Positions 1,602 through 60,600 of a DNA stretch of 64,000 nt are shown here, piece after piece. Under the pieces are notes generated by a model that worked only from the letters and a program-made list of their open reading frames with translations, was not told the DNA's origin and ran no database searches. The position numbers and the translations under genes were made by a program. Every line of letters starts with the position of its first letter. Position 1 is the stretch's first letter. This DNA is from Escherichia virus TH44, in the sequence record MT446415.1. One strand, written 5' to 3'.

Positions 1602-3548
1602 TTATAGTGTAATTGGTTCAAGGTCAATCTTTGTATATTGCGGACGAAGGTCATTCTCAAATACAATCAGTGAACCATCTTGCGTGTATATATTATCTTG
1701 GTTAGGACTTGCATAAAGTTCGATTGATTGAACTTCAAAGCGCTCGGAGGTCAATCCAATCGCGGCGATATCCCAAAAAATATAATCAGAGTAATAGTCA
1801 ATTTCGCCAATTGCGTAATAAACTGTTTGGTCAGCCGGAGCTTCCATTTTATTAAAGTCATCTTGCAGGTAAGGCTGGATGTTTACATTTTCAATAACAT
1901 CGCCTGGACGGAATGGACCAATTACCATTTTACCATCGCCACGAGAATCTTTATCAGTTGCAACAATGCGAACGTTATAGGCTTCACCCGTGGTCGGAAC
2001 AAATTCAAATTCACTTGATTCGACTGAACGGTTGCCATACTGGTTATAGTATTTAATGCCGGATTCTGGAGTCTTAAAGAAGTTCAGGACTTCACGCACC
2101 ATCGAAATGGTTGCAGATGAACCAAGAATACTATGGTCAGTATTATCCACATACGTAAGCATTTTTGACTTAGCAAAACTTCTGTTAAAGATTTCAACTT
2201 CATCGATATAATAACGGTCAATCTGATTAATGATTTGTGCTTGCAGCCATTGTTCAGATTCTTGTAATTTGTTCAGCGCATAAGATACTTTGATATTATG
2301 TTTAAGGAACAAATAATCCGGAGAAATTACCGAGGGTGTAATTGTTGATACGTTGAACTCGCTAAGGTAGTTCTGGATGTCCTCACGCTGCACTGCAGTG
2401 AGATACAAGCCCGATTTAGGCTTAACTGATATAAACGCATACCCAGGCTTATTTGCGTCTGTAAACGTCTGTACGGCTTGCACGATTGAACCAAATCTTT
2501 CAGATACGAAGGTATCATAATCTGTTCCGGTGACAGCACGCATCTGCGCTTCACGTTTAACAACAGCCAGTTCACGGATACGTTCGATATCTTCTGGGTC
2601 ACCACCGCCATCGGCACCGACATAATCAGGGTCGTTGTTGTAGTTTTCAGTAATTTTATCCACTGTGATATAAGACAAAGTATCGGCATAACTGAAATCA
2701 ACAGCGCCGTTTGCATCTGCCCCTGAGGTACGAAGATATTCAATAACAATTGTCGAATCTTGCACCGGTTTGAGACCGCCAATATAGTTGGCTTCCATAA
2801 CGCCACCGGCTACGGATTTGGTGGATTCACCTTCACCGAAGAAAAATTCAGTATAGCCATCGATTGTTTCACGCATATAAAATATGGTGGAAGTCGAACC
2901 AGCATGGACCATTGATTTGTTCGTCCAGTCAACCCACTCAACACCGTTCACATATAACTTAACTTCTTTGCGGTCGATATCCGGGTCGCGAATAAGAATA
3001 GGTTGTTTCGGGTCATATAAAAGTTCTGTACGAATAATACGGCCCTGGGCCAGAGATACAATCGGAAGGTATTGGTTGTTAATATCTTTAACCGCAATAA
3101 CGTTTTCCGTGGTAACAAAAACATAAGGGTCAGCTGATGTATCACGAGCATATGCCAGGAATTTAGTTCCTCGTGGGATTTCAATATTCGATGGTTGCAG
3201 AGCATGAGAACATGTCAACATAACCGAAGTCTTTGCGGCCGAACGTGAAGATGGAAGATATCCATTATCCTGTGCCGCCTGAACAACCGAAGACCTTAAG
3301 TTTGCAGTTCCGATAAATGATTCATAAACTGCTGTATTAGCAAACTGCTGCATATAAAGTGTATTATACGCAAGCATGTCAATCAGGATATTCATTCGCG
3401 AACCTACGAAATCATAATCCTTAAATTCATCCTGGCTTGATAACCAGTCGATGATGTTCTTTTTAATTTCTTCAAACGTAGCTCCCACAAATACTTTTGG
3501 GATAGCGTTAACGGTTCTTGTTAATTGGTAATTCGTAGGAGTAGCCAT
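1602..3548 (-). CDS. 6: baseplate wedge protein gp6
   Basis: 648 aa; N-terminus MATPTNYQLTRTVNAIP...DYDFVGSRMNIL matches remembered T4 gp6; T4 gene order. Confidence 0.9.
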   Translation of the reverse strand: MATPTNYQLTRTVNAIPKVFVGATFEEIKKNIIDWLSSQDEFKDYDFVGSRMNILIDMLAYNTLYMQQFANTAVYESFIGTANLRSSVVQAAQDNGYLPSSRSAAKTSVMLTCSHALQPSNIEIPRGTKFLAYARDTSADPYVFVTTENVIAVKDINNQYLPIVSLAQGRIIRTELLYDPKQPILIRDPDIDRKEVKLYVNGVEWVDWTNKSMVHAGSTSTIFYMRETIDGYTEFFFGEGESTKSVAGGVMEANYIGGLKPVQDSTIVIEYLRTSGADANGAVDFSYADTLSYITVDKITENYNNDPDYVGADGGGDPEDIERIRELAVVKREAQMRAVTGTDYDTFVSERFGSIVQAVQTFTDANKPGYAFISVKPKSGLYLTAVQREDIQNYLSEFNVSTITPSVISPDYLFLKHNIKVSYALNKLQESEQWLQAQIINQIDRYYIDEVEIFNRSFAKSKMLTYVDNTDHSILGSSATISMVREVLNFFKTPESGIKYYNQYGNRSVESSEFEFVPTTGEAYNVRIVATDKDSRGDGKMVIGPFRPGDVIENVNIQPYLQDDFNKMEAPADQTVYYAIGEIDYYSDYIFWDIAAIGLTSERFEVQSIELYASPNQDNIYTQDGSLIVFENDLRPQYTKIDLEPITL

Positions 3549-3556
3549 TTTATTTC

Positions 3557-3850
3557 CTATTTTATAAAGACTTTTGATGAGGCTTGAGCCACAGTATCAC
3601 CACATGAAATCGGGTCTGCCATTTGAACAGCTTTCTTACCGGTAACAAATACTTTTGATGTGCGCGGTTGTGTTACTCCACCGTGAGTTTCATATGGTTT
3701 TTTAATTTCGGTATGCTCGGTAATAGGGTCCCCGGCAACTAACACCGGAATTCCCCCGGTGAATACTTTACCTTGAGTTGCATTAATTACAGTCGGTGGC
3801 CATGCTTCGTGGCCTGCTGTAACACATTGATTGAAACTTAATCCAGCCAT
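3557..3850 (-). CDS. 5.4: PAAR-repeat spike-tip protein gp5.4
   Basis: 97 aa, same length and position as T4 gp5.4; start overlaps 5.1 stop (TAATG). Confidence 0.8.
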
Positions 3851-4371
3851 TAATCCCTCGCATATACGTATGAACGCAATTTATCTGCCCATCTTGACCA
3901 GTTACCAACGATAGTTTTTGTGTAAACTTTTGTCATTGTTTTTCTTACTGGAGCAGGAGGTGGGTCGGTCTCATTACCCGCACGGCTATTACTGCCACCA
4001 GAGCTCCCTGTGTCTCCACCAGAGCTCTCTTCTTGAAAGTCATAGGTTAGGGTTACCGTGTATGAAAAGACTCTCTGGAGGCTCGCTGGGGCCCTCCAGA
4101 GATACAATTGAGTACTCTTATCGGTAGGAAGGTCTTCCCATGAACCAGCAGTTTTGAATTCATCATTAAGCCGATATTTAAGTGCATCATCTGCGAATCC
4201 GAACACGGATTCATAAACGCCATAAAGATGATTCTCCTCAACATTAACGCCAGGGGTGGCCTCATATTCAGTTATATTTATTTCGACTAATGTTTCGTTT
4301 GTTTCTAATTGAGCTGTAAACGTAACATCGATTGAGGCTCCTTCCATGGAGTCTCCTAAGTCAGTGCTCAT
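3850..4371 (-). CDS. 5.1: gp5.1-like protein
   Basis: ORF between genes 5 and 5.4; first ATG downstream of gene 5 stop chosen (track ORF begins at TTG 4431). Confidence 0.6.
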
Positions 4372-4381: not shown

Positions 4382-6124
4382 TTAGCCAATGTCAATCCTC
4401 GAACCATCAATAGTATATTGACCAGATGCAATAGAACTCATTGTTGACATTGTTTCGGACCAATTGCCAGCCACGGTCATATCAACGTTTCCATTAACGG
4501 ACCATTTGACATTACCATTTACCGTATAATCATGGTTACCTTCGACAAGAGTTTTTGCGTCACCTTTAACAGTTATTTCAGCATTACCTTCGACCAAAAT
4601 ACTTACATTACCTTTGACAATAATTGTACCGTCACCTTCAATGGTTTTGGTTTCATTCCCACGAATATGAATGCTTTCGTTTCCATCGGTCTGACGACGA
4701 ACGTTAGCCATATTATAATAGGTTTCATCACCACCAACGTTGACTTTATTATTACCGCCAACGTAAGTACTCGAATCGCCCTGGGTCATATAATAACCAT
4801 CAGCCACTGTCTTCGAAGTCTTACGACCGTCTGGTGCAACTTCCTCATAGGAACCGGTTGGATGAATCAGTCGATAACGTTCTTGTCCAGGGGTGTTATC
4901 AAATTCCTGAATATGACCGCCTTCAGTTTGCATTGTCTGCACGTAAGGATATTCGCCCTTGTAACTGGATTCTGGCTCTTTAAACAGAATCCTCGTATCT
5001 TCTGGAGTCCATGGGTCGGCTGGGTCAGAATTTGCAGGGGCTGCAAAGGTTTGAATCATCCTATATGAACGCCCTTTAAATGACCTTTCTTTAGGGGCCA
5101 TAATACCATATGATTCCATGTTACCTGTAAGGATAATCATTGATACCCTTGATGCACGGCCTTTAGTTTGGTTAAACCATACAGAATCACGAGCGGCATC
5201 AAATGCTTTCTTATAATCTCCAGCTAACATTGCAGCGAGCATCGTTTTAAATTTAGCAAGCCCACCCAATCCCATTTGGAAAGCCATGTTTTCAAGAGCC
5301 ATTTGTCTCGAACGGTTTTCTTTATTGTAAACTGGACCCACGACACTATGTCGACCTATATCGTTTTGCACTTTTTTAAGGTCTTCTTGGAATAATTTAG
5401 AGGCCTCGTCCATTGATATTGCACCAGGGTTACCTTTAACTTCACGGCCTATTTGATTAGATAATATTTTGTTTATCTGATTCATATCTCTAATAGGTTG
5501 TGGTGCAATCAAGTGTCCTATACCTATAGTAGGATAACCTTCGGTGTCCCAATATACTTTCAAACGAAGACCTTCATCACGGTGAAGCATATTTTCAATT
5601 GTGAAATTAGGATTATCATCTGGCTTAACTTGACTCAAATCAAGGCCATCGGGGTTAATACCAAGGTCAAGGTTTGCATCCTGAATTACGTTCGAAGTTG
5701 CATCATAACCGACCTCACCGCCTCGGTTGAGCGCAGCAGCATCATTACCTACATAAAGTGGATATTGTCCTGTGGGGTCAGAGAAGCCTTCGTTGGGATT
5801 TGCTTTTTGTCTTGAGGCTGAACCATATGTACCAAGGACTAATCCGTTAAGTTTCCACTTGTCTAAAAAGTGACCATACACTTGAGTCCCTGGCACCATA
5901 CCGGTCATTGCAGTTTGAATACCCGAAACTGATGCAGATGATGTTGGCATCAATACAGACATCCATGGCAGGTCTTCAGTTCTGATACCTTTTACAGGCC
6001 CTTGCGATTTCTCATATGGATGCATACCCCATACACGGACACGGACTCGACCTTGTTGAAGTGGGTCCATTCGGTCTTCGACAACACCGACGAACCAACT
6101 TACACTATCTGACATATTAATCAT
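4382..6124 (-). CDS. 5: baseplate hub and tail lysozyme gp5
   Basis: 580 aa; internal lysozyme motif GYPTIGIGHLI; C-terminal VxGxxxxx beta-helix repeats; start overlaps gene 53 stop (ATGA). Confidence 0.93.
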   Translation of the reverse strand: MINMSDSVSWFVGVVEDRMDPLQQGRVRVRVWGMHPYEKSQGPVKGIRTEDLPWMSVLMPTSSASVSGIQTAMTGMVPGTQVYGHFLDKWKLNGLVLGTYGSASRQKANPNEGFSDPTGQYPLYVGNDAAALNRGGEVGYDATSNVIQDANLDLGINPDGLDLSQVKPDDNPNFTIENMLHRDEGLRLKVYWDTEGYPTIGIGHLIAPQPIRDMNQINKILSNQIGREVKGNPGAISMDEASKLFQEDLKKVQNDIGRHSVVGPVYNKENRSRQMALENMAFQMGLGGLAKFKTMLAAMLAGDYKKAFDAARDSVWFNQTKGRASRVSMIILTGNMESYGIMAPKERSFKGRSYRMIQTFAAPANSDPADPWTPEDTRILFKEPESSYKGEYPYVQTMQTEGGHIQEFDNTPGQERYRLIHPTGSYEEVAPDGRKTSKTVADGYYMTQGDSSTYVGGNNKVNVGGDETYYNMANVRRQTDGNESIHIRGNETKTIEGDGTIIVKGNVSILVEGNAEITVKGDAKTLVEGNHDYTVNGNVKWSVNGNVDMTVAGNWSETMSTMSSIASGQYTIDGSRIDIG

Positions 6125-18626: not shown

Positions 18627-18966
18627 TCTTGCATCACATGTTTATCAATTGGCTGAATATGATATTGGTGCCAGTTTATTATTAGGGATACCCACCGCCA
18701 TGCTTGGTGGTTTGGTTGGTCTGGTAATGACCACGGTTATGGCTGCAATCGAGGGAGTGATGCCCATTGAGATGGGTTTCTTTATGATAATCGCTCCGGC
18801 TGTTGTGTCTTATTTTATCCCTGTTGTGTATGATATCTGCCACACAAACGCCGTGAATGCTCCTAGTCGGAAGAGATATGCTTCAGCAATGGCTGAGTAT
18901 AATAAGTTCCTAGACAAAACAAAACGTAATGACCTTGAAACCTTTATTAAGGAATGTAAATCATGA
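18613..18966 (+). CDS. membrane protein
   Basis: ATG after aggagg; TM helices; C-terminus LETFIKECKS resembles end of the 22203 gene. Confidence 0.55.
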   Translation: MERPSLASHVYQLAEYDIGASLLLGIPTAMLGGLVGLVMTTVMAAIEGVMPIEMGFFMIIAPAVVSYFIPVVYDICHTNAVNAPSRKRYASAMAEYNKFLDKTKRNDLETFIKECKS

Positions 18967-19253
18967 ATAAAATTGAAATTGCTATCCCCAAGTATTATGA
19001 TGAGAAATCTGCAGAAAAAGCTATCTATTCTCTTCTAAATAAGACCTCTGAAATTGAAAAACACTGTGAAGAAATCGCAGATGAATATGGTATCGAATTC
19101 AGCACTGGCGATTACGGCACCGGCCGTACATATCACCCAGTCGGTTATGAATGTTCCGAATGGTTCGCTCACCATATTGAAAACAACGGCGGGCAAGTTG
19201 AAAACGGCATTGTTACTGTTGGTGCCTGGGTTTCCTCTTCTGAGGTGTGCTAA
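18963..19253 (+). CDS. W-SS-C tail family paralog 1
   Basis: 96 aa; ends ...GAWVSSSEVC. Confidence 0.6.
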   Translation: MNKIEIAIPKYYDEKSAEKAIYSLLNKTSEIEKHCEEIADEYGIEFSTGDYGTGRTYHPVGYECSEWFAHHIENNGGQVENGIVTVGAWVSSSEVC

Positions 19254-19254
19254 T

Positions 19255-19536
19255 ATGATGAATGATTACCGTAAAAATAAAGAACTGGCTAACGCAGTAA
19301 ATGATATCCATAAAGCTATTCGTCGTGCCGAGGAAATTGCAAACAAATATGAGACTCATTTTAATATATACCCTGCTCGCGGTATGGGCGGTGACTATTA
19401 TTCTCCTGGCGCCCTGAAAGCTGACCTTGCTCATTGGGAAGAACATGGTCATCCTGAATGGGCTATTGTTAATACTCATGACTATACAACTGACCTGGAA
19501 AAAGGCGGTTGGGTGTCCTCCTCTTCTGAATGTTAA
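19255..19536 (+). CDS. W-SS-C tail family paralog 2
   Basis: 93 aa from ATG after previous stop; ends ...GGWVSSSSEC. Confidence 0.6.
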   Translation: MMNDYRKNKELANAVNDIHKAIRRAEEIANKYETHFNIYPARGMGGDYYSPGALKADLAHWEEHGHPEWAIVNTHDYTTDLEKGGWVSSSSEC

Positions 19537-19544
19537 GGAATGTT

Positions 19545-19742
19545 ATGTCTCGTGAATTAGATTGTGCAATCCGTACTGCTGCGGCAGCTATTGAAAACGT
19601 TATCCAGATTTGTAAAGAAGAGCGTGAAGAAGCTGATATCTATATTGACGGTCAGCGTAATCTGGAACGTCATATCACGCTTTATAATGGTTGTATTACA
19701 ATTAGTGGTACCTCTTGGGTGTCCTCCTCTTACGAATGCTAA
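19545..19742 (+). CDS. W-SS-C tail family paralog 3
   Basis: 65 aa; ends ...TSWVSSSYEC; taaggaa SD. Confidence 0.6.
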   Translation: MSRELDCAIRTAAAAIENVIQICKEEREEADIYIDGQRNLERHITLYNGCITISGTSWVSSSYEC

Positions 19743-19751
19743 GGAAATAAA

Positions 19752-19970
19752 ATGACTACTAAAACTGTTAAAGAAATTGAAGACCAAATCCGTGCACTAA
19801 TCTGTGAAGGTGAACAACTGGCCGATAAAACCGGCGAACACTTCTGTAGCGGTGGCGAAGAATATATTCCAGCTTCTAGTCCGGAATATAACGATTACGA
19901 ATGGGTTCGTGATGAATATTGTATTCCAGAAGGTGAAGGTTTCTGGTTTAACTCCTCTATGTCTTGCTAA
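19752..19970 (+). CDS. W-SS-C tail family paralog 4
   Basis: 72 aa; ends ...GFWFNSSMSC. Confidence 0.55.
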   Translation: MTTKTVKEIEDQIRALICEGEQLADKTGEHFCSGGEEYIPASSPEYNDYEWVRDEYCIPEGEGFWFNSSMSC

Positions 19971-19979
19971 GGTGATAAA

Positions 19980-20213
19980 ATGACTACTGCTGTTGAACAT
20001 GCTGAATTAGAAAAAGCTGCCCTTGAACTGGCCGCGCTGTATAAGAAAGTAAAAGATATGGCTTTTGCTCAAGATTTCGGTGTCGAGCTTGATGATTATG
20101 ACGGCGAAGTTCGTCTTGAAGATTGGTTGAATAGCTCTTGTTACGGTGAAGAAGCTGGTCGTACCTTCGTTGCTCGTGCCGATGGTAAAATCTGGTATCC
20201 GAGTAGCTGCTAA
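19980..20213 (+). CDS. W-SS-C tail family paralog 5
   Basis: 77 aa; ends ...KIWYPSSC. Confidence 0.55.
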   Translation: MTTAVEHAELEKAALELAALYKKVKDMAFAQDFGVELDDYDGEVRLEDWLNSSCYGEEAGRTFVARADGKIWYPSSC

Positions 20214-20258
20214 AATTATCACAAGGATGTGATAGGAGGACTTATGTGCAGAAATTTA

Positions 20259-20288
20259 GTGTACAAGCCTAAAGAAACGTAGTATCAT
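20259..20288 (+). promoter_or_regulatory. early-promoter cassette (gtgtac-N18-tatcat)
   Basis: Preceded by perfect 7-bp palindrome tatcaca-agga-tgtgata (20217-20234). Confidence 0.5.
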
Positions 20289-20316
20289 TATCTCGTCAAC
20301 TAATGAGGAAAATATT

Positions 20317-20484
20317 ATGTATAATGTTCTTATTGTTTTTGTCACTCACCCGCAAGGTGGAGTAAGACAGAATACTTCTCAAGTGGTTCAATTTTCTTCA
20401 CTAGAGGCCGCCAATCTTGCTGCCTCACGAATTGAAGCGAAAAAATCGGCACTTGGAAAATATGAAGTAACTCGTCTTTACTAA
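20317..20484 (+). CDS. small hypothetical protein (55 aa)
   Basis: Below track cutoff; ATG after leader aatgaggaaaatattATG, which also precedes the 20498 and 21517 genes. Confidence 0.45.
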   Translation: MYNVLIVFVTHPQGGVRQNTSQVVQFSSLEAANLAASRIEAKKSALGKYEVTRLY

Positions 20485-20497
20485 TGAGGAAAATATT

Positions 20498-21457
20498 ATG
20501 ATGTTAGTTATTGGTTCTCGTGCATTACATAACGCTGGTCTGATTGAAAGTCAGAAAATTGAAAACTCTGATTGGGACTTTATCGCTGACCAGGGTTCTT
20601 GGAACCACTTTAAAGCACGTATGTTCGGGGCTCATGTTCCTGTGGATAACCCTAACGTCCAAGCTTTTAAATGTATGTACAATGGCAAAGAAACCTATTT
20701 TGAAGCTTATATTGTCCGTGCCCTGACCAATGTCAGAGAAATTACTGGTGAGCTTCAAGACGAAGATTTCACCTCAAGTTATCGTCTCTTGAAATACGCT
20801 GAAAATCATATTAAGAAAGACCGTCTTACAGGTTTCTATTGGGCGACGCCTGATATTTGCCTGGCGATTAAATTGTCTCATCGTTACCTGAAGAACAATC
20901 CATTCTTCCTGAAGACCATGAGTCATATTAATTACCTTCGCAATAAGGGTGTTGTTCTTAATGATGAACTGCAAAAAATCATGCTACAGCGTCAGGCAGA
21001 AACATTGTCATATAGTCACCCTAAACTAGACGTGGGCAAGAAAACTTTCTTTAATGATACAATCTATACCCTTGACCATGACTCCATCCACGAGGCCGTG
21101 GCGCTTGCTGATAAGCCTGCATATAAGTTCTATATGAAGGATGATTCAGAAGTCATGACCTCACGTGAAAAATTTGAAGCACTCCCTGATGTTATTAAAC
21201 TGGCAGGGGTTTATGAAGAAGCATGTGTGCTCGCTCTGGAGCGTTCGCAGGTTCCTAATGAGTTCAATATCTCTCCATCCGTGAGCTTCCATGTTGCGCT
21301 GGAAAAAGTCTGCACCTCCATTACTTCTGGATGGTTCCGTGAGTACGCCTGGGAACATTACCAGGAAGTGGTTAATATGTATAACACCCTGGGTCGCGAA
21401 GACTATGTTAAACGCTTCAAGGCTAACCAACATTTAATTCGCCCTTTCACAAAATAA
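20498..21457 (+). CDS. hypothetical protein (319 aa)
   Basis: N-terminus LVIGSRALH...ENSDWDF weakly resembles a nucleotidyltransferase G[S]...D.D motif. Confidence 0.6.
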   Translation: MMLVIGSRALHNAGLIESQKIENSDWDFIADQGSWNHFKARMFGAHVPVDNPNVQAFKCMYNGKETYFEAYIVRALTNVREITGELQDEDFTSSYRLLKYAENHIKKDRLTGFYWATPDICLAIKLSHRYLKNNPFFLKTMSHINYLRNKGVVLNDELQKIMLQRQAETLSYSHPKLDVGKKTFFNDTIYTLDHDSIHEAVALADKPAYKFYMKDDSEVMTSREKFEALPDVIKLAGVYEEACVLALERSQVPNEFNISPSVSFHVALEKVCTSITSGWFREYAWEHYQEVVNMYNTLGREDYVKRFKANQHLIRPFTK

Positions 21458-21516
21458 GTATGTACATCCAAGTGGGACCATGACACAATGGTCCCACAAT
21501 CAATGAGGAAAATATT

Positions 21517-22203
21517 ATGAACAGTCCAAAAACTTTTAATTCTCAAGCTCGTGCAGTAGGCGGATTTGCAGGTCATATTTCTAATGATGATATTAAAAAC
21601 GAGCCTATGTTCTTTAACTGTGATTTGAATTTTGCTGCACAAAATGGCGGTCCTATTACTCGTAGCTTTATTACTAATCTCCCTGATGAGTGGAAAGCCG
21701 CTGAATGTGTATTTGATTCTCGGGTTCATATGTTGATGCCTGGTTGGTATCCTGCTATCCCAGGGTATCATCATGACGATGTACCACGCCCAGATATTCC
21801 GGTTGGTCAACACTTTATTACTGCAGGGCAACCTGATTATGATAATCCTCGTTACCATTCTGAACATATTCTTGGTCTTGTTAACGCTGATGTGTGTCCT
21901 ACTTATTTTGCAACCGGAACTGCACAATTTAGTCAGATTCCTGAAGGCGAACTTATCTATCGCCAGTGGCATAAAGAAGTTCTGGAAAAAATTGAGTCCA
22001 ATGAATTAACCAAGTGGGATGCTCCTGACCGTACGTTGCTCCAGTTTGATTGGCAGACATGGCATACAGGTTCTCGCGCAGTAAGTAATGGTTGGCGCTG
22101 GTTTGGTCGCGTATCTCGTAAAACTGACCGCGTTAATAAAATCACCAATGAAATTCGCGTTAATGCTCAAGTATATCTGGAATTCCCTATGGAGGGCTGG
22201 TAA
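21517..22203 (+). CDS. hypothetical protein (228 aa)
   Basis: Preceded by hairpin gtgggaccat...atggtcccac and the shared leader. Confidence 0.6.
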   Translation: MNSPKTFNSQARAVGGFAGHISNDDIKNEPMFFNCDLNFAAQNGGPITRSFITNLPDEWKAAECVFDSRVHMLMPGWYPAIPGYHHDDVPRPDIPVGQHFITAGQPDYDNPRYHSEHILGLVNADVCPTYFATGTAQFSQIPEGELIYRQWHKEVLEKIESNELTKWDAPDRTLLQFDWQTWHTGSRAVSNGWRWFGRVSRKTDRVNKITNEIRVNAQVYLEFPMEGW

Positions 22204-22790
22204 TGGCCCTTTATGAACCTGGGTGTATGGGTGTTGATGTAAACTTCATCCGTCGCCCAGAAAATGCAGGAATTATTGTCTCAAGAGACGAATTTATGAT
22301 TACCAAAAGATATTGGGCGGACCTTGATGATGGTGATGAAGGAATCAAGGTTGAAAACGTTGATTGGTCGCGATGCAATCGTCATGTGAAAGAGCTTTTA
22401 ATTAAGGAATATAAAATGGGATATATTGTTAATGGGTATCAACCGGAACCACTCAAAGAACAGACACCCGACCCATTAATTTCTTATAGCAAGAAATATG
22501 GATTTCGTACCTGGAGTGATGAATTTGATAAGTTAATTTGTTCCAGGTTTTATGCCTGGTCTGGAATCTTATTTTTACCATTCCTGTGGTTTTTCCTGAC
22601 AGGTAAAAATGAAGCATCTGTAGCTGTAATGGGCGCGTGCTTTTCTACTGCTCTTGCTGGACTTATTGCATCATTTTTATGGACTATGGTTATTGAAGTA
22701 CCTTTTCGTATTTCTAAAGTTAAAAAGGTGTACGACGATATCACTAAGAAAAATACATTGAACTCTTTTATTGAGGAATGCCGTAAATGA
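22203..22790 (+). CDS. membrane protein
   Basis: 195 aa with predicted TM helices; ATGG overlap with upstream stop. Confidence 0.6.
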   Translation: MALYEPGCMGVDVNFIRRPENAGIIVSRDEFMITKRYWADLDDGDEGIKVENVDWSRCNRHVKELLIKEYKMGYIVNGYQPEPLKEQTPDPLISYSKKYGFRTWSDEFDKLICSRFYAWSGILFLPFLWFFLTGKNEASVAVMGACFSTALAGLIASFLWTMVIEVPFRISKVKKVYDDITKKNTLNSFIEECRK

Positions 22791-23023
22791 GTATTGCAAT
22801 TTATATTAAATCCGAGTCATGTGATTCTTATCTGTATTCCTATGACACCGGAACATCAGAAGAGAAAATCAAAGAAGATTTAGAAAGTGATTTGGATATG
22901 TTCTGCCCAATTTCCGATTATATGGTCCAAATATCTGATAGTGAAAGTCCGTCAACAGAAACACGCGTTGAAATTATTATGGCCGAAATCTTTAAAAAAT
23001 CTTGGGAACGTGATGATGAGTAA
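22787..23023 (+). CDS. acidic small protein
   Basis: 78 aa ORF overlapping nudE start. Confidence 0.5.
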   Translation: MSIAIYIKSESCDSYLYSYDTGTSEEKIKEDLESDLDMFCPISDYMVQISDSESPSTETRVEIIMAEIFKKSWERDDE

Positions 23024-23468
23024 GAAAGTGAAGGAATTATCTGCTGGCATTATTTTCATGACCGAAGATAAAGAGTTATTCATGGGTCGTGTGACTGGTT
23101 CTCGTAAACCAGGTATGCCTGCGCACAAATGGGACATCCCTAAGGGTCATGTTGAAGCTGGCGAATCACCGATTGAAGCTGCTATCCGTGAAACCGAAGA
23201 AGAAACTGGGTTTACCCAATACGACCCGGCATTCTTAAAAGACCTCGGTGAATTCCGTTATTCAGATAATAAAAACCTTCACCTGTTTTTATATACGGTT
23301 CCGGTTGAGCATGAACAATTCAGACATAGTAAATGCTCTGCATATCATACCTTCCCGGATGGTAGTACGGTCCCAGAGTTCGATGCATTTGCTCTGATTA
23401 AACCGAGCCAATGGCAGTATGTGATGGGCAAATCGATGTACAAGGTAATGACTCAAATTTTCGGATAA
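23013..23468 (+). CDS. nudE: Nudix hydrolase NudE
   Basis: 151 aa; Nudix box GHVEAGESPIEAAIRETEEETG; directly upstream of e as T4 e.1/nudE. Confidence 0.85.
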   Translation: MMSKKVKELSAGIIFMTEDKELFMGRVTGSRKPGMPAHKWDIPKGHVEAGESPIEAAIRETEEETGFTQYDPAFLKDLGEFRYSDNKNLHLFLYTVPVEHEQFRHSKCSAYHTFPDGSTVPEFDAFALIKPSQWQYVMGKSMYKVMTQIFG

Positions 23469-23493
23469 TAAATACCCCTATATAAGGGGGTAT
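23467..23493 (+). promoter_or_regulatory. late-promoter-like box (aataaata) plus RBS-sequestering hairpin of the lysozyme gene
   Basis: Hairpin atacccc-tatataag-ggggtat ends 1 nt before the e ATG and contains its SD; 7/8 late box overlaps the 5' arm. Confidence 0.55.
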
Positions 23494-23494
23494 T

Positions 23495-23986
23495 ATGAAT
23501 ATATTCGAAATGTTACGCATAGATGAAGGTTGTAAGTTGGATTTGTATAAAGATACCGAAGGCTATTGGACCATTGGTATCGGGCAATTGATAACTAAGA
23601 ACCCATCAAAAGATGTAGCTCGTGCTGAGCTCGACAAGCTTATGGGTCGCGTCTGTAATGGTCGCATAACCCAGCACGAAGCTGAAACATTGTTTAATCG
23701 TTCGGTCGAAAAAGCTAAAGCCGGAATCTTGAGGCATCCTGTCTTAAAACCTGTTTATGATGTACTGGATGAAGTTCGTCGTTGTGCGCTCATTAATATG
23801 GTATTCCAGATGGGTGTTGCCGGGGTAGCTGGTTTTCCTAAGGGTATGCGATTGCTGAAGGCTAAATCATGGGAAGCCGCTGCTAAGGAACTAGCTGACT
23901 CAAGATGGTATAAAGTCCAGACTCCGAATAGGGCAAAACGAGTTATCGAAACTTTCCGTACTGGAACTTTTGACGCATACAAATAA
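23495..23986 (+). CDS. e: endolysin (T4 lysozyme)
   Basis: 163 aa; [12 protein letters not shown]...[18 protein letters not shown]...[14 protein letters not shown], near-identical pattern to T4 gpe. Confidence 0.97.
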
Positions 23987-24264: not shown

Positions 24265-24293
24265 TGTACATCTCCAAACGATAGGGTTATAAT
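24264..24293 (+). promoter_or_regulatory. early-promoter cassette (atgtac-N18-tataat)
   Basis: Leader ccctatcaactacggagaataaacATG before denV. Confidence 0.5.
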
Positions 24294-28480: not shown

Positions 28481-28840
28481 ATGGTAAGAGTTATCACTTT
28501 AGCCATAGGGTTAGTATTCAGCACGGGAGGAATAGCTTCAGTACAGAGCGACGACAACAACAGCATCATAGAATATGCAACGAGGACGGCTAAAGATTAT
28601 TGCGCAGCAAGCAATGTGGATTGTGTAATCCAGTTCAGTGCCAAGCTCACCGCAGCCTATAAAGATGGCCAAAATGATGTTGAACATACGCTTTTGAAAA
28701 AGAATGTATTATCCAACAAATATGAAAAGAAACTATTTGAAATGGATTGCATTCTGTCAAGTGCAAAATATAAGGCGGCCTGCACCAGTATGGTTGACAG
28801 GTTAGTGGATTCATATAATAGAGGATTGAACTCTAAATGA
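28481..28840 (+). CDS. secreted small Cys-containing protein
   Basis: Signal-peptide-like N-terminus MVRVITLAIGLVFSTGGIASVQS; four Cys. Confidence 0.55.
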   Translation: MVRVITLAIGLVFSTGGIASVQSDDNNSIIEYATRTAKDYCAASNVDCVIQFSAKLTAAYKDGQNDVEHTLLKKNVLSNKYEKKLFEMDCILSSAKYKAACTSMVDRLVDSYNRGLNSK

Positions 28841-29310
28841 TTACCCAGTATATTAAGGGCGATATCGTCGCCCTCTTTCTTCAAGGCAATATTATTGCAC
28901 ATGGTTGTAACTGCTTTCACACAATGGGTTCTGGCGTAGCTGGGCAGCTGGCGAAGGCTTATCCAAAAGTTTTAGAAATAGATAAAACCACTACTGAATA
29001 CGGTTCTCGTGATAAATTAGGCGATATGTCTATTGTTTTTAAACATAAGACTACAGGTTTTGGCATGTGCTATAACTTGTATACGCAATACGAACCAGGC
29101 CCTAATCTTGATTATGGTGCTTTAGTAAATTGTATGATAGAATTAAATCTACAAGCAGAAACCCTTTTGTTTAAACCGGTAATTTATATTCCTCGTATTG
29201 GTTGCGGTATTGCAGGCGGAGATTGGGATAAGGTTTCTAAATTAATCGACATGTTTACTCCTGACATTGATTTAATAGTGGTGGATTATGAGCCAAGCCC
29301 GAATTCTTAA
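28837..29310 (+). CDS. macro-domain-like protein (putative ADP-ribose binding/hydrolase)
   Basis: Motifs HGCNCFHTMGSGVAGQ and PRIGCGIAGGDW resemble the two glycine-rich signatures of macrodomains. Confidence 0.6.
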   Translation: MITQYIKGDIVALFLQGNIIAHGCNCFHTMGSGVAGQLAKAYPKVLEIDKTTTEYGSRDKLGDMSIVFKHKTTGFGMCYNLYTQYEPGPNLDYGALVNCMIELNLQAETLLFKPVIYIPRIGCGIAGGDWDKVSKLIDMFTPDIDLIVVDYEPSPNS

Positions 29311-31286: not shown

Positions 31287-31313
31287 AGGTCTGCCTTCGG
31301 GTGGACCTTTTTT
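31287..31313 (+). terminator. rho-independent terminator with UUCG tetraloop
   Basis: aaggtctgcc-ttcg-ggtggacctt then TTTTT; ~90-bp block repeated at 60581-60670. Confidence 0.75.
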
Positions 31314-31381
31314 CATTTAGGGGGTTTACAACACCATAAAAAGGGTGTACTATTATCCCATCAACTACTGAGGAGAACACA

Positions 31382-32564: not shown

Positions 32565-33125
32565 ATGATTATTGAAACAACTGAATTGTTTGGCGAACTG
32601 ACCGCTGAAGTAGTTAATAATGCAATTGAGCTTTGTCAAGAAGACGATAAAATCGTACTGACTATCCAAGATATTAAACCACTTTATGATTTAATGGTTT
32701 TGGATAGACACGATTATCTTAATGGTCGTGCTAGTGCTCCTATTGATATCAATGATGATATGTATGCCTATATCTATAAAAATGAAGCTGGGTTTAATCT
32801 GGAAAATGGTATTGAATGTCTGAGCATCAGCGATTCTGATAAATTCTTTGATTGTATCTTCAAACTCTTCCAGGAAGAATGCAAGCCAGAAGTTGAATGG
32901 AAAGTACCAGGTCAAGATGCGCTGATTCGCTCCAGTGAAACCTTTGATGGCGACGAAGAAGAATTGAATTATAATACTGAACTGTCTGTTGTTCAACATG
33001 GCGGCCGTGACCAACTATGTATTACCCAAGTACACGATGGTTTTAATGAAGTGGTATTTACTAAAGACGAGCTAAAAGTTTTAGTCTCTTATCTGAACTC
33101 TGTTATCCCAACTATGAACGCTTAA
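32565..33125 (+). CDS. acidic hypothetical protein
   Basis: 186 aa. Confidence 0.6.
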   Translation: MIIETTELFGELTAEVVNNAIELCQEDDKIVLTIQDIKPLYDLMVLDRHDYLNGRASAPIDINDDMYAYIYKNEAGFNLENGIECLSISDSDKFFDCIFKLFQEECKPEVEWKVPGQDALIRSSETFDGDEEELNYNTELSVVQHGGRDQLCITQVHDGFNEVVFTKDELKVLVSYLNSVIPTMNA

Positions 33126-33135
33126 GGAAAATATT

Positions 33136-33588
33136 ATGATTATCAATGCAAACTCTTGGCACGTTAAATTACACGACCGTTTTTACGACCGTAATTCTCG
33201 ACCACACTCTCTGTGTGCTTATTTCTGGAAAATGGTTTGGGCTTGTTTTGCTTGTGCTGTTGTTGCAGGTAGTACGCTTTTTGGATTAACTGTTGCAGGG
33301 GCTGGGGTATTAGAGCATTTCTTTGTATTAAGTACTCCTGTTCTGTTGAGTCTCGGGTTTGTTTTAGGGTTGGCTACGATAGCTCTTATTATTGCGCTAT
33401 CCATTGGTTTGGCATTAGGTGCGATGAATTTACACGCATGGTATGATGCACGTATAGAAGAAAAGGAATGGCAACGTATTCTAGCCAAACGTGAAGGAAA
33501 GGAAATTAAAGAAAATATCGTCATTCAATATATCAAAGCTCGTAAATCTAAGATGTGTCCGGTAATCCATTTTGAGGCGAAGAAATGA
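33136..33588 (+). CDS. membrane protein
   Basis: 150 aa, several TM helices. Confidence 0.6.
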   Translation: MIINANSWHVKLHDRFYDRNSRPHSLCAYFWKMVWACFACAVVAGSTLFGLTVAGAGVLEHFFVLSTPVLLSLGFVLGLATIALIIALSIGLALGAMNLHAWYDARIEEKEWQRILAKREGKEIKENIVIQYIKARKSKMCPVIHFEAKK

Positions 33589-34595
33589 GAACAGTTATGA
33601 AAGGCTACTTCGGTAGCCATCTTTATGGAACAAGTACCCCGGAATCTGATGTCGATTTTAAAGAAATCTTTGTTCCGCATCCTCGTGATATTCTACTTGG
33701 GACGGCGATGAACCATACCAACCTGAATACGAATAACACGGCCACCAAAAATACAAAAGATGATGTTGACCATGAGCTTTACAGCCTGAAATATTTCTTT
33801 AAACTGGCGGCCGAAGGCGAAACCGTTGCTCTGGATATGATTCACACCCCGGCTGACCTGGTTGTCAAATCCGATTTACCGGATGTATGGAAGTTTATTC
33901 AAGACAACCGTTCGCGGTTTTATACAACTAACATGAAAGCCTATTTGGGGTATGTCCGTAAGCAAGCTTCCAAATATGGTGTTAAAGGTTCTCGTCTGGC
34001 TGCTCTGCGTGGTGTACTGGCAATCGTTAACCAGATTCCTGAACAGTGGGTCGACTATCAAGAAGGAATCCCTGATAGACTTCGTCGTACTAAGGTAGAA
34101 GATATCAAACACAGACTCCCTGAAAACGAGTTCTGTGAATGGGTATTCCATAACCATGAGAAAACAGGTCCACAAACGTTCTATACTGTTCTCGGACGTA
34201 AGTACCAAACAACGTTATCAATTACAGAGCTTAAGCAATCTCTGAATAAACTTGATGCTGAATATGGTGAACGTGCTCGTAAGGCAGAAGCCAATGAAGG
34301 TATTGACTGGAAAGCTCTGAGTCACGCTTATCGCGCAGGGTATCAATTGATGGAAATCTACCAAACAGGTGACTTGGTGTTCCCATTGCGCGAAGCCTCT
34401 ATCATTAAGCTGATTAAAGCCGGTGAATTACCATTTAAAGAAGTTCAAGAACTTCTTGAAGATACTGTTGATTTGGTTGAAGTTCTGGCTATCCAGGCTC
34501 ATAAGAACGGTATGCCTGAGAAGGTAGACATGAAGTTCTGGGACAAGTTCGTTGAAGAGGTATATCTTGACAACCACAACTCTTATTATCGATAA
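33585..34595 (+). CDS. Pol-beta-superfamily nucleotidyltransferase-like protein
   Basis: N-terminal GSHLYGTSTPESDVDF fits G[S]x9D.D nucleotidyltransferase motif; 336 aa. Confidence 0.6.
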   Translation: MRTVMKGYFGSHLYGTSTPESDVDFKEIFVPHPRDILLGTAMNHTNLNTNNTATKNTKDDVDHELYSLKYFFKLAAEGETVALDMIHTPADLVVKSDLPDVWKFIQDNRSRFYTTNMKAYLGYVRKQASKYGVKGSRLAALRGVLAIVNQIPEQWVDYQEGIPDRLRRTKVEDIKHRLPENEFCEWVFHNHEKTGPQTFYTVLGRKYQTTLSITELKQSLNKLDAEYGERARKAEANEGIDWKALSHAYRAGYQLMEIYQTGDLVFPLREASIIKLIKAGELPFKEVQELLEDTVDLVEVLAIQAHKNGMPEKVDMKFWDKFVEEVYLDNHNSYYR

Positions 34596-34791: not shown

Positions 34792-34814
34792 GGACCCTTC
34801 GGGGTCCTTTTTTA
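34792..34814 (+). terminator. rho-independent terminator
   Basis: ggaccc-ttcg-gggtcc followed by TTTTTT. Confidence 0.75.
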
Positions 34815-34826
34815 TTTTAAAAAGTA

Positions 34827-34856
34827 GTGTACAACCAGATGGTCATGAGGCATAAT
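34827..34856 (+). promoter_or_regulatory. early-promoter cassette (gtgtac-N18-cataat)
   Basis: Leader gattccatactgagttaccaaataaacaaacggagaataaaATG. Confidence 0.55.
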
Positions 34857-34897
34857 GATTCCATACTGAGTTACCAAATAAACAAACGGAGAATAAA

Positions 34898-36006: not shown

Positions 36007-36069
36007 ACGCTTTATACCAAGGATGGTATAATGGTTCTGACCTTTGATTAATCTATTGAGGAAATTATT

Positions 36070-36918
36070 ATGTCACAAGCAATTAATGAAATTCGTTCTG
36101 AAGTTAAAAACGCTGTTAAATTCACAGGACGTATTCCAAGCACTAAAGATGTGGTTTTAAATGTTCTGTATATGATGTGGAATAAGTTCAATGTTTGTAC
36201 TAATTCTGCTGAATTCACTAAAATCTTTGAAAAGACCAAAGGTCTTCTTACATTAGAAGACCGAGTCATGAAATCTCTTCATCGTTCAGGTATGTTGTCT
36301 CGTGCTAATGCCAAAATTATTCTTAAAAAATATAACAAAGGCTATGACCTTTATGGTCGTGCGATTAGCACCATGACGTTTGATGAAGTGGTTAAAGACC
36401 TTTGGAAGAACCAACGTCGTTTACTGGCGCTTGGTGCGCGTCTTGCGAGTGGTCAAGATAAACAAATGACCTTTAAAACCAATAATTCTTTAGATTATAA
36501 ACTATTTAATGTTATTAAAGGTCAAAATGAAGGCGAATACAGTATTTCTTCTTTTAGTGGATGTCAATACGAAAACTGGAAATTCCATCTTCGTTTGGCG
36601 TTGTCTGTACTGGAATGCCACGGTGTTCTTACCTTTTATGATGTTCAAACTGGAGGCGTCCAGCGTATTAAATTATGTCAAATTAAAGACCAAGTTGAAG
36701 CCAGCCCTTCAGAACAAGCTCCTAAAATGGAACCTGTTCCAGTGCGAAGCAATGAAAAATATTCAGAGCAAATTGAGCTTTTCACTAAACAGATTGAAGA
36801 ACTTAACATCACCATCCAGCAACAAGATGATGAAATTTTCCGCCTGACAGGGTTGAACAGCGCAGCGAAAGCTGAACGTCAGAAACTGATGAACGTTATT
36901 GAATTGCTTAAGGATTAA
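36070..36918 (+). CDS. hypothetical protein
   Basis: 282 aa, C-terminal coiled-coil-like. Confidence 0.6.
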   Translation: MSQAINEIRSEVKNAVKFTGRIPSTKDVVLNVLYMMWNKFNVCTNSAEFTKIFEKTKGLLTLEDRVMKSLHRSGMLSRANAKIILKKYNKGYDLYGRAISTMTFDEVVKDLWKNQRRLLALGARLASGQDKQMTFKTNNSLDYKLFNVIKGQNEGEYSISSFSGCQYENWKFHLRLALSVLECHGVLTFYDVQTGGVQRIKLCQIKDQVEASPSEQAPKMEPVPVRSNEKYSEQIELFTKQIEELNITIQQQDDEIFRLTGLNSAAKAERQKLMNVIELLKD

Positions 36919-42883: not shown

Positions 42884-42913
42884 GTGTACAAGCCCCTTTG
42901 AATGATGTATCAT
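42884..42913 (+). promoter_or_regulatory. early-promoter cassette (gtgtac-N18-tatcat) in hairpin ggggtgtacaagcccc
   Basis: Leader tatcccatcaactactgatgaggaaaacataATG. Confidence 0.5.
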
Positions 42914-42944
42914 TATCCCATCAACTACTGATGAGGAAAACATA

Positions 42945-43121
42945 ATGACTATCCAAGATAAAGAAATTAAAGTCAACCAGTATTATTCAATCAACGGCAA
43001 AGCTGTTCTAGTGACTGGAATATCTAGCCTGGATGTGTGGTATACCATAATTGACCTTAATATTAAAATGATTTGTGACCGTGGTGTATTTTGTTCGATA
43101 GCTAAGGAAATCAAATTATGA
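42945..43121 (+). CDS. small hypothetical protein (58 aa)
   Basis: Below track cutoff; ATG after cassette leader. Confidence 0.45.
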   Translation: MTIQDKEIKVNQYYSINGKAVLVTGISSLDVWYTIIDLNIKMICDRGVFCSIAKEIKL

Positions 43122-60581: not shown

Positions 60582-60600
60582 AGACCTTCGGGTCTTTTTC
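60581..60600 (+). terminator. rho-independent terminator with UUCG tetraloop
   Basis: aagacc-ttcg-ggtctt then TTT; start of ~90-bp block also at 31283-31381. Confidence 0.7.

What the first reader, a model, noticed from the sequence alone, without database searches (positions are those of the whole stretch)
20217..22203. Palindromic operator-like sites and a shared 19-nt leader mark an inserted block of large novel ORFs
A perfect 7-bp palindrome tatcaca-agga-tgtgata (20217-20234) follows the W-SS-C array, and a 10-bp palindrome gtgggaccat-gacaca-atggtcccac (21472-21497) precedes the 21517 gene. The 20317, 20498 and 21517 ORFs share the identical leader aatgaggaaaatattATG, distinct from the ggagaataaaATG leader used elsewhere. 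The two larger ORFs (319 and 228 aa) have no T4 counterpart I recognise. The distinct leader and the palindromes suggest a separately acquired, possibly separately regulated module.
Basis: seen in the sequence. Interest (0 to 1): 0.4.

Follow-up and report, generated by a model that had tools for sequence, protein, structure and literature searches.

The report
Recycled promoter, hairpin and ribosome-site cassettes
The palindromes and shared leader are the ordinary promoter/hairpin/ribosome-binding cassettes that T4-like phages use to express and shuffle accessory genes, not repressor operators around a newly inserted module.

Summary

- **Palindrome 1 (20217-20234):** an orphaned hairpin+SD+ATG start region of a gene that relatives still have (JS98 orf124-like). 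That gene is deleted here and replaced by an early-promoter cassette paralogous to the one at 42885-42947.
- **Palindrome 2 (21472-21497):** the stem-loop of a PeSL-type early promoter (TGTACA-17-CACAAT). It is one of 11 dyad-bearing promoters among 26 in the window, and it covaries with the equivalent hairpin in another genus.
- **The leader AATGAGGAAAATATTATG:** a translation initiation region that stays with the 319-aa and 228-aa genes across genera. It is nearly identical to the T4 gene 44 initiation region, the classic RegA operator, and lacks the RegB cleavage motif GGAG. In Dhakavirus relatives it is the exact crossover point for presence or absence of the 55-aa gene.
- **The two large ORFs:** widespread conserved phage genes, a nucleotidyltransferase-like protein (DUF7277+DUF7275) and a PhyH-like Fe/2OG-dioxygenase-like protein. 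They are absent from T4's e.3/e.2 junction but compositionally native.

RegA control of the three genes is inferred, not shown. Overall this is a new example of known kinds of element, of modest interest.

The parts
20217..20234 (+). Palindrome 1: a 7-bp stem and 4-nt loop hairpin, the orphaned upstream hairpin of the start region of a deleted gene (JS98 orf124-like).
   Evidence: Exact. In nine related loci the same hairpin precedes GGAGGACTT-ATG of a full gene starting MHKDSVFKYLL. Stem position 3 varies T-A / T.G / C-G.
20235..20282 (+). SD GGAGG (20235-20239), ATG (20244) and a 12-codon remnant (MCRNLVYKPKET*) of the deleted orf124-like gene.
   Evidence: Alignment with VR25 (L021): homology runs from the hairpin to about 20265 and then stops.
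20260..20288 (+). Early-promoter-like site TGTACA (20260-20265) - 17 nt - TATCAT (20283-20288), part of a cassette paralogous to 42885-42947.
   Evidence: promoter scans. GTGTACAAGCC matches 11/11, and the -10 and leader are nearly identical to the unit at 42885-42947.
20302..20319 (+). Leader copy 1: SD GAGG, 8-nt A/U spacer and the ATG of the 55-aa ORF.
20317..20484 (+). 55-aa ORF (phrog_20278). It forms a 181-bp cassette between two leader copies.
   Evidence: The gene is precisely absent in L006, L010, L011, L064 and L035, with breakpoints inside the leader repeat.
20483..20500 (+). Leader copy 2 (it contains the TAA stop of the 55-aa ORF) and the ATG of the 319-aa ORF.
   Evidence: Positions -12..-1 are about 100% conserved in homologues of 63-72% aa identity. 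Cross-genus DNA homology begins at this leader.
20498..21457 (+). 319-aa ORF: DUF7277+DUF7275, nucleotidyltransferase-like.
   Evidence: Pfam 1.3e-75 and 2.3e-26. G6 S7 D25 D27 are invariant. The model has pLDDT 91.7 and its best PDB matches are MenT1 and NTase-like proteins, E 6.5e-3.
21461..21489 (+). Weak early-promoter-like site TGTACA (21461-21466) - 17 nt - CACAAT (21484-21489). VR7 has CATAAT at the -10.
   Evidence: It has the same register as the denV promoter at 24265-24293.
21472..21497 (+). Palindrome 2: a 10-bp stem and 6-nt loop straddling the -10 hexamer, the stem-loop of a PeSL-type cassette.
   Evidence: -19.7 kcal/mol, z -2.9. (one of five 10-bp promoter dyads). (92.9% paired, 4 pairs with compensatory changes).
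21502..21519 (+). Leader copy 3 and the ATG of the 228-aa ORF.
21517..22203 (+). 228-aa ORF: PhyH-like Fe(II)/2OG-dioxygenase-like protein (phrog_1843).
   Evidence: Model pLDDT 89.5. Foldseek hits to HygX, GriE, SnoK and proline hydroxylases, E about 4e-4. H85 H86 D87 D88 and H183 are invariant.

Best explanation
The region is a stretch of a T4-type hyperplastic region (between the e.3 and e.2 homologues) built from reusable regulatory cassettes.

1. **Shown by comparison.** Palindrome 1 plus GGAGG plus ATG is the orphaned start region of an orf124-like gene. That gene was deleted when an early-promoter cassette, a paralogue of the one at 42885-42947, replaced the gene bodies. The joins are a microhomology in the -35 (AGTGTACA vs AGTATTCA) and the GAGGAAAA..AT.ATG leader.
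2. **Shown by anatomy, inferred for function.** Palindrome 2 is the stem-loop of a PeSL-type composite element. It comprises a T4-type early promoter (TGTACA-17-CACAAT, weak here), a dyad straddling the -10, and an SD+ATG at its 3' end. Transcripts reading through from upstream would contain the whole hairpin, which could attenuate, terminate or stabilise them. Transcripts starting at the element's own promoter would contain only its 3' arm.
3. **Shown by conservation, inferred for RegA/RegB.** The identical leader is a translation initiation region made of SD GAGG, the spacer AAAAUAUU and AUG. It is inherited with each gene across genera. It is nearly identical to the gene 44 start region, the reference operator of the RegA translational repressor, and lacks GGAG, the RegB cleavage motif. 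These genes are therefore probably translated from RegB-resistant messages and shut off by RegA competing with the ribosome.
4. **Shown by comparison.** Because the leader is repeated in direct orientation, it is also a crossover point. The 55-aa gene is gained or lost as a 181-bp unit with breakpoints inside the repeat.
For: - **Promoter family:** 26 T4-type early-promoter matches on the + strand, against 2 on the - strand and 2.4 in shuffles. 42% carry a perfect dyad of at least 7 bp, against 5.6% of background windows. The 21461 site is in the top class, and the aligned units are shown.
- **PeSL definition:** early promoter plus stem-loop (upstream of the promoter, or overlapping -10) plus SD/ATG, located in hyperplastic regions beside indels (PMC2839356 and PMC4122927).
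- **Hairpin 2:** 92.9% of cells paired against 32-56% in slid controls, four pairs with double changes, and 0 of 500 shuffles reaching the covariation score.
- **Hairpin 1:** it is the start region of a real gene in nine loci, with T-A / T.G / C-G variation at one stem position.
- **Leader conservation:** conserved upstream of the 319-aa and 228-aa homologues whatever the neighbouring gene. Mean identity over -15..-1 is 0.85, against 0.51 for e and 0.42 for denV.
- **Gene 44 resemblance:** T4 gene 44 TIR is AATGAGGAAATTATG and the window's gene 44 has ATGAGGAAAATATATG. The three genes rank 1-3 of 128 in similarity to that TIR, and none has GGAG.
- **Unstructured:** the leaders are predicted to be unstructured, z about 0.
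- **Regulators present:** regA and regB are encoded in the window. RegA is 79% identical to T4 RegA with K14, T18, R21, W81 and F106 kept.
- **RegA site features:** A+U-rich, 5' poly(A) tract, at or next to the AUG, unstructured, with gene 44 as the model operator (review PMC3014915).
- **Cassette loss:** the 55-aa gene is lost with breakpoints in TGAGGAAAATATTATG.
- **Indel hotspot:** the gap between the 319-aa and 228-aa genes varies from 10 nt to about 2 kb.
Against: - No expression, binding or termination data exist for this phage, so promoter use, hairpin function and RegA/RegB sensitivity are all inferred.
- The -10 of the second element (CACAAT) is poor and the site falls below the generic promoter scan threshold. 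It may be a decaying promoter.
- Neither hairpin is followed by a U-tract, so neither is a canonical intrinsic terminator.
- RegA sites are low in information content (review), so resemblance to the gene 44 site is suggestive, not diagnostic. Any strong A/U-rich start region would look similar.
- The covariation for hairpin 2 rests on two clades only, 7 distinct sequences.
- Palindrome 1 is not more stable than shuffled sequence.
Confidence: 0.7

Rival explanations
1. One reading: the palindromes are DNA operators bound by a phage early protein, and they define a separately regulated, separately acquired gene module.
For: Both are exact inverted repeats in intergenic DNA next to promoter-like sequences. 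Palindrome 2 overlaps a -10 hexamer, where a repressor could act.
Against: - Palindrome 1 belongs to the start region of a gene that is deleted here.
- The two palindromes share no sequence.
- The stem sequence of palindrome 2 is replaced between genera while pairing is kept, and the eleven promoter dyads in the window all differ in sequence. This is expected for structure, not for a common protein-recognition site.
- Variation passes through G.U-compatible intermediates on the + strand.
- The block is compositionally native and widely conserved.
Confidence: 0.05
2. The leader is simply an efficient ribosome-binding site with no dedicated regulator. Its identity among the three genes reflects common descent and gene conversion between adjacent repeats, and its cross-genus conservation reflects selection for high translation only.
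For: - GAGG plus an A/U-rich 8-nt spacer is a near-optimal unstructured start region.
- Recombination between copies demonstrably occurs and would homogenise them.
- RegA sites are poorly defined.
Against: - The spacer sequence, not just the SD, is conserved far beyond what is seen for e and denV in the same loci.
- The closest match in both T4 and the window is the gene 44 start region, the best-characterised RegA operator.
Confidence: 0.3
3. Palindrome 2 is only an RNA element of the 319-aa to 228-aa transcript, for example a 3' stabiliser or processing barrier or a U-tract-less attenuator. The overlapping promoter-like hexamers are no longer functional.
For: - The -10 is weak (CACAAT) and the site is below the generic scan threshold.
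- The hairpin is strong (-19.7 kcal/mol) and covaries.
Against: - The geometry (-35, 17 nt, -10 inside the dyad, then the leader) is the same as at clearly promoter-like sites such as denV at 24265, and at the Kanagawavirus-like homologues with TTTACA-17-TAAGAT.
- VR7 has a better -10, CATAAT.
Confidence: 0.2

Closest known systems
PeSL (promoter-early stem-loop) cassettes of T4-like phages (Arbiol et al. 2010, PMC2839356; Comeau et al. 2014, PMC4122927)
   Same: - A composite of a sigma70-like early promoter, a stem-loop (upstream of the promoter as in T4/PST, or overlapping -10 as in RB49/phi1) and an SD+ATG.
- Many copies per genome, concentrated in hyperplastic regions.
- They flank small accessory ORFs.
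- Indels and replacements have breakpoints in them, and 'half' or degraded copies occur.
   Different: - Described for the RB49/phi1, T4/PST and KVP40/nt-1 pairs, not for the VR7/VR20 (Gaprivervirus) or JS98 (Dhakavirus) groups.
- The -35 here is mostly GTGTACA/GTTTACA.
- In the 55-aa gene case the crossover lies in the 16-nt SD/AUG leader alone, without promoter or stem-loop.
- No promoter, terminator or mini-circle assay has been done.
RegA translational operators of T4 and RB69, with the gene 44 operator as the reference site (review PMC3014915)
   Same: The site is unstructured and A+U-rich with a poly(A) tract, immediately 5' of and including the AUG. Its first ten bases (AAUGAGGAAA) are identical to the T4 gene 44 start region, and an upstream UAA is present in two copies. 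regA is present with its RNA-binding residues conserved.
   Different: The spacer is 3 nt longer than in T4 gene 44. The genes concerned are accessory genes absent from T4. Binding and repression are untested.
RegB endoribonuclease targets (GGAG in early Shine-Dalgarno regions; review PMC3014915)
   Same: The standard early leader of this phage (..ACTGAGGAGAATAAAATG) carries GGAG, and regB is encoded in the window.
   Different: The three leaders of the finding lack GGAG, so they would be expected to escape RegB. The orphaned SD after palindrome 1 (GGAGG) does contain it.
Deletion or duplication by recombination between short direct repeats (cited in PMC4122927 as Albertini et al. 1982)
   Same: A 181-bp unit bounded by 16-21-nt direct repeats is present in some phages and precisely absent in others.
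   Different: Here the repeats are functional start regions, so every recombinant keeps an intact start region for the downstream gene.

Membership tests
PeSL cassette | Sigma70-like early promoter with -35 and -10 boxes about 17 nt apart | tested here: met
   Site 20260-20288 is TGTACA-17-TATCAT. Site 21461-21489 is TGTACA-17-CACAAT, weak here, with CATAAT in VR7. The motif class is strongly strand-specific: 26 + strand, 2 - strand, 2.4 in shuffles.
PeSL cassette | Stem-loop adjacent to or overlapping the promoter | tested here: met
   20217-20234 lies 25 nt upstream of the -35, but it derives from the deleted gene's start region. 21472-21497 straddles the -10.
PeSL cassette | SD and start codon at the 3' end of the element | tested here: met
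   GAGG-N8-ATG at 20306-20319 and 21506-21519.
PeSL cassette | AT-rich tract upstream of the -35 | tested here: inconclusive
   Short A/T runs are present (agaaattta, acaaaataa) but are not distinctive in a genome of about 40% GC.
PeSL cassette | Located in a hyperplastic region, beside insertions, deletions or replacements | tested here: met
PeSL cassette | Demonstrated promoter and terminator/attenuator activity, and mini-circle formation | not testable with these tools
   Requires reporter fusions and inverse PCR on infected cells.
RegA translational operator | Site overlaps or lies immediately 5' of the initiator AUG | tested here: met
   The conserved block runs from -15 to +3.
RegA translational operator | A+U-rich with a 5' poly(A) tract and no stable secondary structure | tested here: met
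   The spacer is AAAAUAUU. Folds are -4.9 and -4.5 kcal/mol with z about 0.
RegA translational operator | Resemblance to a validated operator (gene 44) | tested here: met
   T4 gene 44 is AATGAGGAAATTATG and the leader is AATGAGGAAAATATTATG. The three genes rank 1-3 of 128.
RegA translational operator | Cognate RegA present with RNA-binding residues | tested here: met
   PF01818 at 4.2e-61. 79% identity to T4 RegA, with K14, T18, R21, W81 and F106 conserved.
RegA translational operator | RegA binding and regA-dependent repression | not testable with these tools
   Needs RNA-binding assays and a regA mutant.
Rho-independent terminator | GC-rich stem followed by a U-tract | tested here: not met
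   The scan reports no terminator at either palindrome. The stems are followed by GGAGGAC and AATCAAT.
Fe(II)/2OG dioxygenase, PhyH-like (228-aa ORF) | Double-stranded beta-helix fold with an HxD...H metal triad | tested here: inconclusive
   The model is confident (pLDDT 89.5). The top 50 PDB hits are nearly all Fe/2OG enzymes, but with E about 4e-4 and TM 0.3-0.4. H85/H86, D87/D88 and H183 are invariant. There is no Pfam hit.
Pol-beta-type nucleotidyltransferase (319-aa ORF) | N-terminal G[SG]...DxD motif on an NTase fold | tested here: inconclusive
   G6, S7, D25 and D27 are invariant. The best structural matches are MenT1 toxin and an NTase-like protein, at E 6.5e-3 to 7.6e-3 and TM 0.3-0.5. 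Pfam gives only DUF7277 and DUF7275.

The most novel reading that the evidence does not exclude
The invariant 15-16-nt leader GAGGAAAAUAUUAUG may be a dual-purpose element. It would be a RegA-type translational operator placing a conserved pair of accessory enzymes (nucleotidyltransferase-like and Fe/2OG-dioxygenase-like) under the same post-transcriptional clock as the replication genes. It would also be a minimal, promoter-less recombination joint that lets single genes be excised or inserted while always regenerating an intact start region. That would be a 'TIR-cassette' mode of modular shuffling distinct from full PeSLs.
Probability: 0.25. Interest if true: 0.5.

Novelty: new member of a known kind. 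Interest (0 to 1): 0.3.

Why it matters
- **Annotation.** Exact intergenic palindromes in T4-like phages are usually parts of promoter/stem-loop cassettes or relics of lost genes, not operators. Repeated leaders can be read as regulatory class labels: a gene-44/RegA-like type lacking GGAG, against the standard type that carries the RegB motif GGAG.
- **Mechanism of gene gain and loss.** The region gives clean, base-resolved examples of how accessory genes are lost and gained in a hyperplastic region. One is a promoter cassette overwriting two genes. The other is a 181-bp gene cassette excised between two start-region repeats.
- **Extension of earlier work.** This extends the PeSL idea to the VR7/JS98 groups.
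- **Testable prediction.** RegA is predicted to control a widespread but uncharacterised enzyme pair.

Tried and rejected
- **Intrinsic terminators:** the scan found none at either palindrome and neither has a U-tract.
- **Known RNA families:** no Rfam match in 19000-23000 at E up to 1.
- **Foreign acquisition:** GC is 0.40-0.435 in the block and 0.36-0.43 in the flanks, so there is no compositional signal.
- **Solved-structure sequence searches:** nothing significant for either large ORF. NCBIfam was not run on these two ORFs.
- **Lambda-type operator idea for palindrome 1:** the outer bases TATCAC/GTGATA recall lambda operator half-sites. This is from my own knowledge, not tested. I rejected it because relatives have AACCACA/TGTGGTA, keeping pairing but not sequence, and because the element is tied to an SD+ATG.
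- **Primary RegA papers:** I tried to confirm the gene 44 operator oligonucleotide sequence in PMC29736, PMC146235 and PMC49227. None is held, and a full-text search for the string found nothing. The comparison therefore rests on the T4 genome sequence and the review.
- **T4 coverage:** the whole T4 genome was not scanned for the two ORFs. Only the e-segB region and the 26-36 kb region were examined.
Full report
**Context**

The window is a T4-like phage. The closest relative is Gaprivervirus VR20, at 93.6% identity over 19500-23500. The + strand is the early-transcription direction. Downstream of the finding lie homologues of e.2 (22203-22790), nudE, e and denV. Upstream lie e.3/e.4 homologues and an array of small paralogous ORFs ending in W-SS-C. 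In T4 itself e.3 overlaps e.2 by 4 nt. Everything from the W-SS-C array to the 228-aa ORF is therefore extra relative to T4. It lies in the e-segB hyperplastic region.

**Check of the observation**

All strings are present as described.
- The 18-mer AATGAGGAAAATATTATG occurs exactly three times, each ending in a start codon. With up to 3 mismatches there are 7 matches against 0.23 expected.
- Palindrome 2 is a strong hairpin: -19.7 kcal/mol, z = -2.9.
- Palindrome 1 is exact but no more stable than shuffled sequence: -8.2 kcal/mol, z = -0.7.

**The genes**

- The 55-aa ORF belongs to phrog_20278.
- The 319-aa ORF matches Pfam DUF7277+DUF7275 and is found in 731 phage records. Its model is confident (pLDDT 91.7). 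It weakly resembles MenT1 and other nucleotidyltransferases, and G6, S7, D25 and D27 are invariant.
- The 228-aa ORF has no Pfam hit but is found in 471 phage records, including Aeromonas, Klebsiella and actinobacteriophages. Its model (pLDDT 89.5) matches PhyH-type Fe(II)/2OG dioxygenases almost exclusively, though weakly at E about 4e-4. H85-H86-D87-D88 and H183 are invariant.

These are conserved hypothetical enzymes, not novel ORFs. GC content does not differ from the flanks.

**A genome-wide promoter family**

Tabulating the start context of every gene and aligning upstream regions revealed a recurring unit. It consists of a -35 GT(G/T)TACA, a 16-18 nt spacer, a -10 TATAAT-like hexamer, and then TATCCCATCAACTACTGAGGAGAATAAAATG or a second sub-type.
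- A T4-type early-promoter pattern gives 26 hits on the + strand and 2 on the - strand, with 2.4 expected in shuffles.
- 11 of the 26 (42%) contain a perfect dyad of at least 7 bp within the promoter window, against 5.6% of background windows. The dyad usually brackets the -10 (e.g. GGGATAgtgTATAATTATCCC) or the -35 (e.g. GGGGCttacAGCCCC).

This is the anatomy of PeSLs, the promoter-early stem-loop cassettes described in RB49/phi1, T4/PST and KVP40/nt-1. Those comprise an early promoter, a stem-loop either upstream of the promoter or overlapping -10, and an SD plus ATG at the 3' end. They are concentrated in hyperplastic regions beside indels and are thought to act as terminator/promoter composites and recombination sites (PMC2839356 and PMC4122927).

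**Palindrome 2**

The site 21461-21497 reads TGTACA-17-CACAAT, with the 10-bp dyad straddling the -10. It has the same register as the denV promoter at 24265 (AGGGTtataatgACCCT) and is one of five 10-bp cases in the window.
- In VR7 the -10 is CATAAT, and two stem positions become G.U-compatible.
- In a different genus (loci L019, L020, L027, like Kanagawavirus Q7622) the orthologous gene is preceded by TTTACA-17-TAAGAT. There the stem GAGGACAT/ATGTCCTC sits at the same positions.
- On the alignment, 92.9% of cells pair, against 32-56% when partners are slid. Four pairs change on both sides, and no shuffle reaches the covariation score.

Pairing is conserved while sequence is not. Together with the diversity of the eleven dyads, this argues for a structural element, RNA or single-stranded, rather than a protein operator. 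There is no U-tract, so any termination or attenuation is inferred from the PeSL literature only.

**Palindrome 1**

In nine related loci (JS98, JS10-like, VR5, VR25, EAWsc9 and others) the same hairpin is followed by GGAGGACTT-ATG and a full-length gene starting MHKDSVFKYLL. This is JS98 orf124, labelled 'DUF295' in EAWsc9. One stem position runs T-A, T.G, C-G across phages.

In the window, VR20, VR7 and VR26, only 12 codons remain (20244-20282). Homology to orf124 stops at the -35, AGTGTACA against AGTATTCA. What follows, 20259-20319, is a close paralogue of the promoter cassette at 42885-42947: GTGTACAAGCC matches 11/11, and the -10 and leader are nearly identical. A promoter cassette therefore overwrote orf124 and the next gene, joining at microhomologies in the -35 and in the leader. 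Palindrome 1 is a relic.

**The leader**

GAGGAAAATATTATG precedes the 319-aa and 228-aa homologues in several genera, whatever lies upstream.
- For the 319-aa gene, positions -12..-1 are essentially invariant in homologues of 63-72% amino-acid identity. Mean identity over -15..-1 is 0.85. For e and denV in the same loci it is 0.51 and 0.42, and only the SD core persists.
- Cross-genus nucleotide homology begins exactly at the leader.
- T4's gene 44 start region is AATGAGGAAATTATG, and the window's own gene 44 has ATGAGGAAAATATATG.
- Of 128 + strand genes, the three genes of the finding rank 1-3 in similarity to the T4 gene 44 site. None contains GGAG.

According to the review PMC3014915, RegA represses about 30 mRNAs by binding unstructured, A+U-rich sites with a poly(A) tract at or just 5' of the AUG. 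Gene 44 is the reference operator, and an upstream UAA may contribute. RegB inactivates early mRNAs by cutting GGAG in Shine-Dalgarno regions.

Both regA and regB are in the window. RegA is 79% identical to T4's, with the RNA-binding residues conserved. The leaders are predicted to be unstructured.

I therefore infer that these three genes carry a RegA-type, RegB-resistant start region. I put the probability at about 0.4-0.5 for this step, because RegA sites carry little information. However, the leader at 20317 is itself a sub-type of the common promoter cassette.

**The leader as a crossover point**

JS98 has orf123 - leader - 55-aa gene - leader - 319-aa gene. Five relatives (L006, L010, L011, L064, L035) have orf123 - leader - 319-aa gene. 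Their flanks are identical to JS98 up to TGAGGAAAATATTATG on both sides. The 55-aa gene is thus gained or lost as a unit bounded by the repeated leader, 181 bp start to start in the window.

The junction between the 319-aa and 228-aa genes is also highly variable, from 10 nt to about 2 kb. In VR7 it holds a 216-aa ORF that RefSeq labels 'restriction endonuclease'. In JS98 it holds a small ORF.

**Verdict**

These are not operators around a newly inserted novel module. They are:
- a relic start region;
- a PeSL-type promoter/stem-loop;
- a gene-linked, gene-44-like start region that also serves as a recombination joint.

All sit in a known plastic region. The elements belong to known kinds. What is new is their documentation in the VR7/JS98 groups, the base-resolved rearrangements, and the prediction of RegA control of a conserved enzyme pair.

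Noticed in passing
window 23465-23497: The lysozyme (e) start region is a hairpin, cccctatataagggggtattATG, that pairs the SD. Relatives keep the pairing with different sequences (cctcctata..taggagg, tcctatcaa..gataggagg). From my own knowledge, this resembles the SD-sequestering hairpin known for T4 gene e early transcripts.
   Followed up: partly
window ~31290-31350, ~34800-34860, ~60575-60640: Canonical terminator hairpins with TTCG loops and T-runs (e.g. ggtctgccttcgggtggacctttttt) sit immediately upstream of early-promoter units. These are textbook terminator-promoter composites.
   Followed up: no
window 9961-61345 (26 sites listed): Early-promoter-like sites are extremely strand-biased (26 against 2). 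They fall into two leader sub-families after the -10: TATCCCATCAACTACTGAGGAG.. and GATTCCATACTGAGTTAC..AAATAAA..GGAGAATAAAATG.
   Followed up: partly
L002 (VR7) 3462-4112: An extra 216-aa ORF (VR7ORF135c, labelled 'restriction endonuclease' in RefSeq) with Cys-rich CxC..CG/CGC motifs is inserted between the 319-aa and 228-aa genes. It overlaps the 319-aa stop and ends at the same AAAATAAGTGTGTACA junction. It is possibly a free-standing homing endonuclease.
   Followed up: no
window 18963-20213: The 'W-SS-C array' is a run of small paralogous ORFs (phrog_899, phrog_4882) ending in WVSSS(E/Y)(V/E)C-like tails. Each is separated by 9 nt and preceded by gctaagg(a/t)(a/g)ataaaATG. Copy number differs between relatives.
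   Followed up: no
window 33585-34595 and 28837-29310: A second nucleotidyltransferase, RlaP 'RNA repair pathway DNA polymerase beta family' (PF10127, 1.1e-12), and a Macro-domain protein (PF01661, 4.3e-08) are encoded in the same early region.
   Followed up: no
window 36055-36072 and 33121-33138: Two more genes (282 aa and 150 aa, function unknown) carry near-copies of the gene-44-like leader, ATTGAGGAAATTATTATG and CTTAAGGAAAATATTATG. The first is the best match in the window to the T4 RegA SELEX consensus, 12 of 15.
   Followed up: no
L004 (JS98) ~4490-4534: Upstream of the 228-aa homologue, JS98-type phages have a different A/T-rich palindrome at the end of orf121 (tactttttcaacaaaaagta), directly before the conserved leader.
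   Followed up: no
L004 (JS98) 3086-3250: The 55-aa gene is present in JS98 at 96% amino-acid identity but is not annotated in the RefSeq record.
   Followed up: partly
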